The translations under genes and the position numbers were made by a program. From positions 89,900,001 through 89,964,000 of the forward strand of contig OZ024745.1 in the NCBI GenBank assembly GCA_964016885.1: 64,000 nt of DNA, written 5' to 3'. This document shows, piece after piece, positions 2,058 to 62,073 of the stretch (its first letter is position 1; every line of letters starts with the position of its first letter). Below the pieces are notes generated by a model. That model was not told the DNA's origin. It did no database searches and saw nothing but the letters and a program-made list of their open reading frames with translations. Origin of the DNA: Eledone cirrhosa. Lineage: Eukaryota.

Positions 2058-3142
2058 TGTAGGAGGTGAGTTTTATTGTAGTACAATAAAGCAATGCAGA
2101 TATCGGATAAGAAGCACTCTACAGTTTGTAGGACTGGAGTATGCATAATATAAGATCAAAAGATGGTTAAAGGAGTTCCATGTATTTTATTATGCGCATT
2201 TCAAAAACAAACATCATCATGCAATAATACTTGTGTTTTCATCAGATAAAACAGGAGAACATGATATGAAGGCTAAAAAACACTTGTGGATAGTGCAGTT
2301 TTAAATCTACATATGAAAAGTGGTTTTAGATTGATGTGTGATATTGGGAAAAATATTTTATTTAGAGATGGGGGGGGAGGATGAAAAAGGGGGAGGAGAT
2401 GAGAGGAAGAGATGGGTAATAGAGAGAAAGAGATAGCTTTTATAACTGAGAGGAGATATACTGTCCCACACAGAGAGGTTGAAAACCGTTGGAAGATAAT
2501 GTATAAACCCCAAAAAATTTTTGAAAATCAACGAAAGGAGGATATGTGCGAGGAAAAAGTATTTTATTTAAGGAGGGGGGCTGTGTAATGCAATGTATCT
2601 TTCTCTCAGTTATAAAAACTATCTCTTTCTCTCTATCGCCCATCTCTCCCTCTCCACCTTCACTCTCATCTCCTCCCCCTTTTTTTCATCCTTTCCAGCC
2701 CCTCTCCTTAAATAAAATACTTTTTCCTCGCACATATCCTCCTTTCGTTGATTTTCAAAAATTTTTTGGGGTTTATACATTATCTTCCAACGGTTTTCAA
2801 CCTCTCTGTGTGGGACAGTATATCTCCTCTCAGTTATAAAAGCTATCTCTTTCTCTCTATCACCCATCTCTCCCTCTCTACTCCTCCCCCTTTTTCATCC
2901 TTTCCACCCCCCCCCCCTCTCTAAATAAAATATTTTTCCCAATATCACACATCAATCTAAAACCACTTTTCATATGTAGATTTAAAACTGCACTATCCAC
3001 AAGTGTTTTTTAGCCTTCATATCATGTTCTCCTGTTTTATCTGATGAAAACACAAATATTATTGCATGATGATGTTTGTTTTTGAAATGCGCATAATAAA
3101 ATACATGGAACTCCTTTAACCATCTTTTGATCTTATATTATA
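2058..3142. mobile_element. non-coding HHR element, family A, head-to-head palindromic insertion between (TA)n tracts
   Basis: 2147-2580 is the reverse complement of ~2700-3140; HHR on - at 2184-2252 and on + at 3034-3102; internal ~200 bp duplication. Confidence 0.8.
3034..3102 (+). ncRNA. type-I hammerhead ribozyme, family A
   Basis: GTTTTAT-CTGATGA-long stem II (CAAATATTATT/GATGATGTTTG)-GAAA-TGCGCA-TA-ATAAAAT; palindromic stem III ATGCGCAT; copies at 2184-2252(-), 37174-37242, 63396-63464. Confidence 0.8.
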
Positions 3143-3709
3143 TATATATATATATTAGTAAAAGGAAAAGAAAATGCTGACAAATTTATCCCAGTGAAAA
3201 ATAGTTTAATTAGGAATAAGTAAATATCAGTAATACGTATTGGTTAGTATTCAGTTTTAGTTTTAAGTATTTACCTGTTGCGCATTTCTAATGCTTTTTC
3301 AAAAATAATTTTGATATATAGCGCCCGTGATGTTTGATCTAATCTGATCAGTTTAGGAAATTCTACCTGTTTTATGTGAAAAAAGTTGCTCCAGATGTAT
3401 TAAGATTTGCTTGGTTGTTGAATGTAACGTGAATGAGCACTATAAGTTTCGCGCCAATTTGTGTTGCAAAAATTCTTGTAGTCAAAACAATTTTGCAAAA
3501 ATTCTTGTAGTCAAAACAATTTTGATTGGTCGGTAGAGGTCACGTGAATGTTCAAAATTGATCTTGCGCCAAATTTAGGTTTGTCGAAGAGTGTCCTTTT
3601 TCGCCTGATTGAGAAGTCACTGAAAAATAAGTCTTTTAGGACAAATACGTGTGTGTGTGTGTGTGAGGTAATGAGGTTCATTGTTGTGATAATGGTCAGT
3701 AGGGATGTG

Positions 3710-60547: not shown

Positions 60548-61499
60548 TAATTATTATCTTATGTTGTTTATTACATAAATAAATAAATAAATATATATAT
60601 ATATATATATATATATATATATATATATATATATATATATATATATATATATATATATATATGTGTGTGTGTGTGTGTGTGTGTGTGTGTGTGGACGATT
60701 TTATCATTCTAGGATGAATTCTAATAATAAGAGACATATATTTAAATATATATATAAATAGATGTCCCTTATTTTAAAATTCGTCTGAAAATATCCATCT
60801 TATCTTAAAATCCATCTTAAAACATTTTATAATTCATCTTACAATATCTTAAACTTCCATCGTTTCTAATGTTGCCTTCTTCAGTTAATTCATTAATTCA
60901 ATCAACCGAACGTGAAATTGACGTAAAACCGGGGGGGGGGGATTCTCCGGGACATTGGGTGAAAAGGCTGACCTCTAGAAGTACATATATAACAAAGTTT
61001 TACTGGAATAGCATGGAATAAAGAGTCAAATTTCGGATATCAAACTCAAGACGCTACGATTGAGCCCAGCATCCTAGGCACTACGCCACTAAGCCATGCA
61101 CCTTCAGTATATGTTACTAAATATTTAAACTAAAATAACATTAAAAATATATTAATATTTGCAAACAAAGGAAAATTACCATCCTATATATATGATTATT
61201 GAATTTCTAAGCGTCAAAGTCGAGATTTACAAGGATGTTTTTTTATGTTTAAAATATAAATGTATAAATGTTGCTGTCTAAATTCCAATGTAAGTATGGT
61301 TGATGGTATGAATGGTTAGATGTATAAGGTCGTGAAGAATGAAATTTGTAGAAATTTGCGGCAAAGAAACAGATTTCTACAAATTTCATACTTGACGACA
61401 CAATATTTATTTACGTTTTCGCGAATAGGCATGTATAATACAATACAACTACATATATATGCATATATATATATATATATATATATATATATATATATA

Positions 61500-62073
61500 T
61501 ATAAAAACAAATAACGAAACGAAATTAAATTTCGTTTCGCTTCTAACTCACTTTTGTATGACTGACGCTTAAACAATTAAGTTAAAGTGTACATCTACAT
61601 ATGTATACGGAAGTATTAGTATGCATATAAATACACACATGTATACATATGTACATGTACTCAGCTTTTCACTAGACACTTTACAGTGAGTGTCAGCTAG
61701 TCTGTATGTAACCACACAGGCGGACCGGGTTTTAGAGTCATACGAGTTTTCAAGGAAACACATTTCCTCTATTCTCCAGAGGGCCAGACAGGAATATTGG
61801 ACTAGTTTCGATGTTATTACATCTCATCAGCAATATTTACCCATCTTCCGGCTTCTCTGGAGAATTGTAAAAGCACATATCGTTATATGCTTTTTCTATG
61901 AAAATTAGTAGTGGGTAGACCAATTTGCATAGAACGTGAGTCATTGTACGCACCGGTTCAGCGGAAACGATAAAAACAAATAACGAAACGAAATTAAATT
62001 TCGTTTCGTTTCCTTGAAAACTCGTATGACTCTAAAACCCGGTCCGCCTGTGTGGTTACATACAGACTAGCTG
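61500..62073 (-). mobile_element. family K relative (~470 bp unit) with canonical HHR and inverted arm
   Basis: 61793-61837(-): AATATTG-CTGATGA-GATGT aata ACATC-GAAA-CTAG-TC-CAATATT; 62010-62073 inverts 61694-61758. Confidence 0.85.

What the first reader, a model, noticed from the sequence alone, without database searches (positions are those of the whole stretch)
2058..62073. One recurring insertion rule: head-to-head arms, with 3' tails usually ending in (TA)n
Seen: using HHR/ORF strand as RNA sense, the left arm is minus-sense and the right arm plus-sense in at least 12 unrelated inserts: 2058-3142, 19062-19920, 20115-20762, 20780-21160, 21412-22170, 24495-25318, 27615-28165, 28634-30882, 35857-37000, 37053-37282, 39415-43402, 48362-51090, 61500-62073. 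I noticed no opposite case within a single insert. Most outer ends merge with (TA)n or AT-rich flank. Established: PLEs often show inverted 5' segments. Inference: both ends of a double-strand cut in (TA)n prime reverse transcription independently, and the two cDNAs are joined 5' to 5'.
Basis: partly seen in the sequence, partly recalled or inferred. Interest (0 to 1): 0.8.

Follow-up and report, generated by a model that had tools for sequence, protein, structure and literature searches.

The report
Penelope-like inserts primed from both ends
In this animal DNA, Penelope-like retroelement inserts in TA repeats carry two head-to-head arms, a known layout, and arms that end at two different sites and sometimes barely overlap suggest both cut DNA ends likely started copying, which would explain how the layout forms.

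Summary
The pattern is real. Polarity is fixed independently (ribozyme or ORF strand) for 12 of the 13 listed inserts; all 12 are head-to-head, as are 6 more I found. One tail-to-tail pair also exists (25319-26030). With one boundary corrected, 25 of 26 listed outer ends touch (TA)n (background 3%). The 13 inserts belong to 10 families, not 12 unrelated ones, and about 11 other inserts show one arm only. The layout is published for Penelope-like elements (PLEs): head-to-head arms, a tail at one end, (TA)n bias. How it forms is still called open; the published model I found is fold-back self-priming. Two things here favour priming from both cut ends. First, 4 inserts firmly and 3 probably have non-nested arms, which one folded-back cDNA cannot give. 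Second, 16 of 17 inserts end at two different 3' sites, reused across copies where several copies exist. Eight nested inserts fit fold-back equally well. No genome was available, so the tally covers one window.

The parts
2058..2583 (-). Family B left arm, tailed (87 nt longer at the 3' end), HHR core at 2245
2584..3141 (+). Family B right arm, tail-less, HHR core at 3041; reaches further 5' than the left arm (probably non-nested; an internal repeat weakens this)
11811..13955 (-). PLE arm with broken RT and EN frames and a 3' HHR (core 11910); not in the finding
13956..14376 (+). Nested inverted RT piece, 93.8% to the left arm; its outer end abuts the next element, not TA
14377..18988 (+). Hydra-type PLE, pLTR-ORF-pLTR partial tandem, ORF broken; no inverted arm of its own
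19063..19842 (-). Family E left arm, tailed (+166 nt), 1.3 units of about 590 nt, HHR core at 19385
19843..19918 (+). Family E right arm, tail-less, nested; its 5' end is the HHR cleavage nucleotide
20020..20494 (.). Family J long arm (boundary corrected from 20115; 95 nt extra); polarity not shown independently
20493..20762 (.). Family J short arm, nested, 96.3% to the long arm
20780..21085 (-). Family A left arm, tailed
21091..21160 (+). Family A right arm, tail-less, nested
21412..22000 (-). Family K left arm, tailed (+92 nt), HHR core at 21759
21999..22170 (+). Family K right arm, tail-less, nested
22289..22425 (.). Older family D insert: tail-only minus arm 22289-22334 plus tail-less plus arm 22340-22425; arms do not overlap; not in the finding
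24496..25200 (-). Family L left arm, one unit of about 690 nt, HHR core at 24866
25204..25313 (+). Family L right arm; ends at a different 3' site; nesting depends on the tandem register
25319..26030 (.). Opposite case: plus arm 25319-25532, (TA)71, minus arm 25670-26030; same 5' end, one tailed, 89.3% alike; one event or two not resolved
27617..28042 (-). Family D left arm, tail-less, d = 89-519 on the ORF-bearing copy 55960-57693
28041..28161 (+). Family D right arm, tailed, d = 0-122; non-nested
28634..28906 (-). Family E left arm, tailed end, 99.6% to the first unit of the right arm
28906..30879 (+). Family E right arm, 3.3 tandem units of 591 nt, HHR core at 28952, tail-less end
35858..36415 (-). 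Family A left arm, tail-less; the 41-nt spacer is assigned to it by composition only
36416..36998 (+). Family A right arm, tailed (+66 nt); the tail encodes the ORF start shared with the Neptune-type copy
37053..37151 (-). Family B left arm: the tail plus about 12 nt (d = 0-99)
37151..37281 (+). Family B right arm, tail-less (d = 87-218), HHR core at 37181; non-nested
39416..41560 (-). Hydra-type left arm with EN remains (inner boundary approximate)
41585..43401 (+). Right arm, 95.9% alike over about 1.8 kb; the only insert whose arms share one 3' end
45628..46043 (-). Arm of another HHR family (core 45995) between the TA tract and the inverted Neptune-type piece
46044..46306 (-). Inverted Neptune-type RT piece lying just 5' of the plus arm (d = 1325-1588): L1-type twin-priming geometry; not in the finding
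46316..47604 (+). Neptune-type PLE 3' half with GIY-YIG, tail-less end at (TA)n (d = 58-1343)
48366..49730 (-). Family N left arm, 4.4 units of 310 nt, four HHRs, tail-less
49730..51090 (+). Family N right arm, 4.4 units, four HHRs, tailed (+34 nt); 1326 of 1326 nt identical to the left arm
54977..55292 (.). Family A insert: tail-less minus arm 54977-55039 plus tailed plus arm 55039-55292, nested; not in the finding
55432..55645 (.). Family C insert, minus left and plus right (tailed); not in the finding
55960..57693 (+). Hydra-type 3' fragment (EN ORF 55977-56585, long 3' region); single arm; reference copy for family D
60388..60578 (.). Family C insert, minus left and plus right (HHR core at 60495); not in the finding
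61503..62008 (-). Family O left arm, one unit of about 470 nt, HHR core at 61830
62008..62073 (+). Family O right arm, nested; outer end not at TA
1..1899 (+). Neptune-type PLE 3' part with tailed end at (TA)n; 5' end outside the window; reference copy

Best explanation
These are inserts of Penelope-like retroelements (Neptune-type and Hydra-type ORFs, plus about ten hammerhead-bearing short families that are likely their non-autonomous passengers) whose two head-to-head arms were likely made by twin priming: the element's protein would cut both strands of a (TA)n tract and both 3' ends would start cDNA, one at the end of the tail and one at the tail-less site, probably on the same RNA. Shown: arm polarity, TA flanks, two different 3' ends per insert, reuse of those ends across copies in four families, a different central junction in each copy, non-nested arms in some inserts, junctions with 0-2 nt exact microhomology or 3-9 nt filler. 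From the literature: a purified PLE protein cuts and extends both strands of AT-rich DNA, starts at two internal RNA sites that bound the tail, and is predicted to be a dimer. Inferred: the two primings are coordinated; the tail-primed RT either stalls near the second primer (near-abutting arms) or displaces its cDNA and copies the same RNA again (overlapping arms; that PLE RT lacks RNase H is recalled); the two cDNA ends are then end-joined.
For: Head-to-head in 18 of 19 polarity-defined inverted pairs (p = 3.8e-5). Non-nested against an independent copy in the window: 37053 (d 0-99 vs 87-218), 27617 (0-122 vs 89-519), 22289 (2-48 vs 85-166), 46044 (58-1343 vs 1325-1588). Probably non-nested: 2058, 35858 (spacer log-likelihood -136 as minus-sense vs -231 as plus), 48366 (best register). 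Different 3' ends in 16 of 17 inserts, 13 of 14 after dropping three with an outer end away from TA (p = 1.4e-4 and 9e-4; table entered by hand). The tail-less end also closes long main or single arms (47604, 63500, 30879), so it behaves as a real start site. Arms match each other better than sister copies: family A 99.6% vs 91.7-95.2%; family E 99.6% vs 77.8%; family B 98.4% vs 94.9%; only 26,917 of 357,658 family A reads in run X15 are 99% or more alike to this copy. The family A tail translates to the same ORF start as the Neptune-type copy, as published tails do. Both-strand cleavage and extension, two start sites and a predicted dimer: PMC11167929.
Against: 8 of 19 inserts are nested and 4 are register-dependent or unclear; these fit fold-back as well. 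Deletion at a palindrome centre (recalled as common) could turn a nested product into a non-nested one; only 46044-47604 would need two coincident deletions, and its inverted piece does not itself end at TA. Overlaps of 0.4-1.8 kb need one RNA stretch copied twice, which is not shown. 39416-43401 has the same 3' end on both arms. Two nested short arms (62073, 14376) do not end at TA. Three small palindromes of unknown polarity have 2-17 nt loops, as fold-back predicts. PMC11167929 reports no difference in start site between top and bottom strand and initiation without homology to the target, whereas the tail-less sites here are AT-rich. In family B the arms (98.4%) are no closer to each other than to the 37053 copy (99.0-99.2%). 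The read layout gave no genome-wide polarity count. One window, hand-curated boundaries.
Confidence: 0.58

Rival explanations
1. One priming event, then fold-back: the RT turns onto its own cDNA, or an antisense RNA self-primes (the model of PMC3846280), copies back toward the 3' end and is joined to the second target end at an AT-rich site. Non-nested cases are later centre deletions. It may account for a subset even if twin priming is right.
For: Gives the same polarity and near-identical arms. 8 of 19 inserts nested. Tight loops in three small palindromes of unknown polarity. The short arms of 20780 and 54977 share one 5' end (d = 122). Published for rotifer PLEs.
Against: Four firm and three probable non-nested inserts, including a young one (37053, 99% to its reference). 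Spacers in polarity-defined inserts are 34-538 nt, not tight hairpins. The tail-less end is also the end of long main arms. The PLE protein extends both strands in vitro.
Confidence: 0.22
2. One reading: both cut ends prime independently, each on its own RNA molecule with a free choice of start site.
For: Explains long overlaps without strand displacement. Four TA-bounded blocks have different families at their two ends. One insert has equal ends.
Against: 16 of 17 inserts have unlike ends, where independence allows at most half. Arms are closer to each other than to sister copies in families A and E. Both arms of 48366-51090 hold 4.4 units. An asymmetric dimer on two RNAs from one dominant source could still do this.
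Confidence: 0.13
3. Separate insertions into the same TA tract, copying of a palindromic master, or later inversion.
For: TA tracts are hit repeatedly (36998/37053, 20762/20780). The tail-to-tail pair at 25319-26030 may be two events.
Against: No TA tract at any of the 14 junctions aligned. Each copy of a family has its own junction, so no master palindrome. At 46044 the sequence upstream of the inverted piece is absent, so it is no in-place inversion.
Confidence: 0.05
4. Fold-back artefact of library preparation or assembly.
For: 48366-51090 has 1326 of 1326 identical nt. No junction was confirmed in independent reads (skipped 36375-36639 as repeat).
Against: Arms of most inserts differ by up to 6% with indels. 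Arms stop at family-specific ends and never run into flanking DNA. Non-nested arms are not palindromes at all.
Confidence: 0.02

Closest known systems
EN+ Penelope-like elements with inverted 5'-truncated copy and tail (PMC8557442 passages and section 15; PMC3846280 passages)
   Same: Inverted 5'-truncated copy at the 5' end, head-to-head as the usual case, tail at one end only, tail made of the first ORF codons, partial tandems, (TA)n bias, no discernible target duplication.
   Different: Tails here are 34-191 nt, against 30-40 nt described. Most carriers are short ORF-less families. Some arms do not overlap. The published model is self-priming; the MBE paper calls the process undefined.
PAc (Poseidon, Anolis) in vitro system (PMC11167929, parts 1-2 of 4 read plus passages)
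   Same: AT-rich target, both strands cut and extended, two internal start sites bounding the tail, predicted dimer.
   Different: Poseidon clade, not Neptune or Hydra. The paper offers no model for inverted arms ('inverted' occurs once, for a blocking dT) and does not pair the two start sites on one target in the text I read.
L1 twin priming (Ostertag and Kazazian 2001: recalled, seen only as a reference entry; passages in PMC10191854 and 10.1101/2024.12.14.628481)
   Same: Second cut end primes internally; head-to-head junction; near-abutting arms as at 37053, 27617, 22289 and 46044.
   Different: In L1 it is a minority outcome (29.5% in PMC10191854), the first primer uses poly(A), and the internal site is not fixed (recalled). 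Here both ends use recurrent sites and overlaps reach 1.8 kb.
Animal non-LTR retrozymes (PMC7229834 passages; 10.64898/2026.07.22.740005 passages)
   Same: Short ORF-less tandem units, each with a type I hammerhead; linked to PLE pLTRs.
   Different: Several units here are longer (470-690 nt) than the roughly 300 nt described. 'Inverted' does not occur in PMC7229834. Two arms of equal unit number fit a linear template better than rolling-circle copying (inferred from one insert).

Membership tests
EN+ Penelope-like elements | RT followed by a C-terminal GIY-YIG endonuclease in one ORF | tested here: met
   46274-47209: Pfam GIY-YIG E = 5e-4, below the curated cut-off. 15914-17638: no Pfam hit; Atlas neighbours at 0.94-0.98, some carrying GIY-YIG or RVT_1 in a share of members. 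RT motif YRDD and YIG motif read directly. ORFs are broken.
EN+ Penelope-like elements | pLTR / partial tandem organisation | tested here: met
   14377-15430 repeats at 17943-18988, 93.9%; tandem units in families E, K, L, N, O.
EN+ Penelope-like elements | Hammerhead motif near the 3' end | tested here: met
   for families B, E, K, L, N, O, C. Weak for the Neptune-type copy (score 12) and family D (score 10, one core mismatch). None found in family J, in 36416-36998 or in 17640-18988. Rfam gave only two sub-threshold HH9 matches.
EN+ Penelope-like elements | Inverted 5'-truncated copy, tail at one end | tested here: met
   18 of 19 head-to-head; 16 of 17 with unlike ends.
EN+ Penelope-like elements | Phylogenetic placement of the RT with PLE/TERT | not tested
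   No named reference set was fetched; no tree built.
Hydra clade | CxCx5C linker, DKT, RWK-like motif, no CCHH, (TA)n insertion | tested here: met
   Motifs as described in PMC8557442 read in 15375-17638 and, for the linker, in 55977-56585; the N-terminal motif reads RWR. By motif only.
Neptune/Nematis clades | CX2-5CxxC linker and CCHH in a C-terminal EN | tested here: met
   46274-47209 carries C-x4-C-x2-C before the EN and two Cys plus two His in it; does not separate Neptune from Nematis.
Naiad | N-terminal EN, no canonical hammerhead | tested here: not met
   EN is C-terminal in the ORFs seen and hammerheads are present.
Non-LTR retrozymes | ORF-less tandem units each with a type I hammerhead | tested here: met
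   Family N: eight hammerheads at 310-nt spacing; family E 591-nt units.
Non-LTR retrozymes | Self-cleavage and circular RNA | not testable with these tools
   No RNA run among the holders.
Twin-priming product (L1 type) | Inverted arm abuts the non-inverted arm on the RNA with little overlap | tested here: inconclusive
   Met in 4 of 19 (overlap or gap under 40 nt); not met in the overlapping majority.
Twin-priming product (L1 type) | One target cut, shown by target duplication or an empty allele | not testable with these tools
   (TA)n hides duplications; no genome or second allele.
Fold-back/self-priming product | Second arm always nested in the first, with a short hairpin at the junction | tested here: not met
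   Non-nested in 4 firm and 3 probable of 19; spacers 34 nt or longer in polarity-defined inserts. Met by a subset.

The most novel reading that the evidence does not exclude
Twin priming is the routine route for Penelope-like elements, not an accident: a dimeric RT-endonuclease cuts both strands of (TA)n, assigns its two DNA ends to the two ends of the tail on one RNA, and copies that RNA twice by strand displacement. The inverted pLTR and the one-sided tail would then be one signature, shared by Neptune and Hydra elements and their retrozyme passengers; occasional two-family blocks would be one break primed on two different RNAs.
Probability: 0.35. Interest if true: 0.7.

Novelty: new member of a known kind. 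Interest (0 to 1): 0.42.

Why it matters
The architecture is ordinary for PLEs. Its origin is a named open question: PMC8557442 lists the formation of tandem/inverted structures and microsatellite bias as unresolved. The geometry here gives two cheap discriminating counts, nested versus non-nested arms and like versus unlike 3' ends, that can be run on any long-read assembly and in the existing in vitro system. It also warns annotators that these short TA-flanked palindromes are retroelement products, not MITEs or microRNA hairpins.

Tried and rejected
Whole genome: none held, so no genome-wide tally or empty-site check. Read layout on one family A arm (4 of 17 listed runs): X15 laid 357,658 reads and X6 7,536 contigs, X12 one read, X11 two contigs; 15 of 27 joints were shown and none changes strand; 36375-36639 was skipped as repeat, so the 35858 junction was not tested. 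The places where many molecules end (36895, 36898, 36989) coincide with AATT, which I read as library cut sites (inferred), so I do not use them. One joint (36943, TA-rich letters, then another copy; 16 reads, 2 starts) agrees with the tail-less end but is thin. Rfam: 124 matches, none at a gathering score. First junction script (part A) was misled by mismatches and was replaced; the 2058 junction stayed unresolved. Idea that the short arm is primed on the upstream tandem unit: at 20020-20762 the short arm matches the downstream unit at the two diagnostic sites, so rejected there. Idea that arms end at hammerhead cleavage sites: three arm ends lie within 6 nt of one (19843, 49730, 28041), most do not; not tested against a null, not claimed. 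Hairpin at the shared d = 122 stop: no stable fold (z = 1.2). Earlier findings: none. Literature: seven searches showed no paper applying twin priming to PLEs; the two hits were seen as listings only, and most subscription papers (including the 2005-2006 PLE reviews) are not in the library. No supplements were read; Fig. S1B of PMC11167929 (cut site versus start site) may bear on the pairing claim.
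Full report
Setting. The window is AT-rich animal DNA with 142 (TA)>=4 runs and many retroelement remains. A recurring SINE-like repeat looks like those of octopus; that is recalled, not tested. No whole genome is held. Family A is very abundant in runs of one coded organism (357,658 reads laid from X15) and almost absent at 85% likeness from two others.

Observation. A masked self-comparison and arm alignments recover all 13 listed inserts. I fixed RNA sense without using the TA flank: a type I hammerhead scan (19 hits scoring 14 or more; 0-2 in each of six controls), a bulge-tolerant rescan (background best scores 0-10 in 105 of 106 chunks, one at 16), and ORF strand directly or by homology. 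Twelve of 13 are minus-left/plus-right; 20115-20762 has no recognisable hammerhead and its left end lies at 20020. The 13 form 10 families. Six more head-to-head inserts were found, and one tail-to-tail pair (25319-26030) with (TA)71 between the arms: 18 of 19 overall. Outer ends of the listed inserts touch (TA)n in 25 of 26 cases after the correction, against 3% background; for the six extra inserts it is 7 of 12. About 11 inserts show one arm only (14377, 21185, 22709, 28191, 28497, 39122, 45628, 55960, 58512, 59632, 62372; and reading), although a non-overlapping second arm would be invisible where no sister copy exists.

What the elements are. 46274-47209 encodes an RT C-terminus, a C-x4-C-x2-C linker and a GIY-YIG domain (Pfam E = 5e-4, under the cut-off): Neptune/Nematis type. 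15375-17638 and 55977-56585 carry the motifs that PMC8557442 gives for the Hydra clade; Pfam finds nothing there, and Atlas neighbours are unnamed or GIY-YIG/RT-bearing clusters. The short families have hammerheads and often tandem units, like non-LTR retrozymes. Family A shares its 3' end with the Neptune-type copy, and its tail translates to the same ORF start.

(1) The two arms end at different 3' sites in 16 of 17 inserts; in families A, B, D and E the tailed and tail-less ends recur across copies. I left out 11811 and 46044, where one arm does not reach a terminal site; dropping three more with an end away from TA gives 13 of 14. The tailed arm is on the left in 9 and on the right in 5. 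(2) Each copy has its own central junction. (3) Mapped on an independent copy, four inserts are firmly non-nested with overlap or gap under 40 nt (37053, 27617, 22289, 46044), three are probably non-nested (2058, 35858, 48366), eight are nested, four are unclear. (4) Of 14 junctions aligned, eight have 1-2 nt exact microhomology (two of them extend to 5 and 7 nt with one mismatch), one is about blunt, four have 3-9 nt filler and one is unresolved. (5) Arms are 93.8-100% alike and, in families A and E, closer to each other than to sister copies; family B is mixed.

Mechanism. Polarity alone cannot decide, since twin priming and fold-back both give minus-left/plus-right. Nesting can: one cDNA folding on itself, or a self-primed antisense RNA, must give a second arm contained in the first. 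The non-nested inserts need two primers unless later deletions are invoked. The unlike-ends rule says the two primers are not free to choose. I therefore favour coordinated twin priming, probably on one RNA (0.58): cut on both strands in (TA)n, one end starting at the tail end and the other at the tail-less site, the trailing RT stalling near the second primer or displacing it, then end-joining. The cutting, extension and two start sites are shown in vitro for another clade (PMC11167929); coordination, displacement and joining are inferred. Fold-back (0.22) remains a fair account of the nested inserts and of three tight palindromes of unknown polarity (45439, 54477, 38846). Independent two-RNA priming (0.13) is favoured only by long overlaps and the two-family blocks. 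Artefact is unlikely except perhaps for 48366-51090.

Against my reading. Nested inserts outnumber firm non-nested ones. One insert has equal ends. The read layout neither confirmed a junction nor counted polarity genome-wide. The in vitro paper saw no strand difference in start site and no homology to the target, while tail-less sites here are AT-rich. Boundaries and the summary table were curated by hand from one window.

What is known. PMC8557442 (passages; section 15; passages) describes the inverted 5'-truncated copy, the tail at one end and (TA)n bias, and calls the mechanism undefined. PMC3846280 (passages) states that head-to-head is the most frequent arrangement and proposes self-priming on an antisense template. 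L1 twin priming is cited in PMC10191854 and 10.1101/2024.12.14.628481 (passages). Seven searches showed no paper that applies twin priming to PLEs, but the library lacks most subscription papers and I read no supplements.

Verdict. The added value is a geometric test that leans against the published model and links the one-sided tail to the inverted arm. Interest 0.42.

Noticed in passing
45628-47604; 59632-60578; 11811-18988; 61503-63500: Blocks whose outer ends are 3' ends of different families, joined on their 5' sides with no TA tract between: one break primed on two RNAs, or later insertion at the edge of a tract.
   Followed up: partly
25319-26030: Tail-to-tail pair with the same 5' end, one tailed and one tail-less, around (TA)71. 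Could be two insertions, or two widely staggered nicks resolved separately.
   Followed up: partly
21091 and 55039: Short arms of two separate family A inserts share exactly the same 5' end (d = 122); no stable RNA fold explains it.
   Followed up: partly
19843, 49730, 28041: Arm 5' ends within 6 nt of a hammerhead cleavage site; may mark ribozyme-cut templates, not tested against chance.
   Followed up: partly
19385, 28952, 45995, 59082: Hammerheads with a U3-A8 core pair in place of C3-G8; family E also has a long loop II.
   Followed up: no
55432-55495 and 60400-60455: In both family C inserts the left arm appears to lack the hammerhead stem II region that the right arm keeps.
   Followed up: no
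30925-32276 and 43900-45220: Two inverted copies of a 1.3-kb repeat with inner microsatellites, 81-95% alike, sharing one TA-flanked end; no hammerhead found, polarity unknown; a small TA-centred palindrome at 32193-32276.
   Followed up: partly
35619-35832, 38846-38910, 45439-45564, 54477-54538: Small palindromes with one arm 91-174 nt longer, mostly next to TA tracts, like the main pattern but without polarity evidence; three have 2-17 nt loops.
   Followed up: partly
41250-41400: Asparagine-rich stretch in the RT-EN linker of a Hydra-type ORF, reminiscent of the N-rich inserts described in PMC3846280.
   Followed up: no
4388-6799, 26509-26913, 52395-53633: Decayed LINE-like fragments (endonuclease-like and RT C-terminal-like frames, judged from recall; Pfam gave only a weak DUF6451 match) and many copies of a SINE-like repeat.
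   Followed up: no
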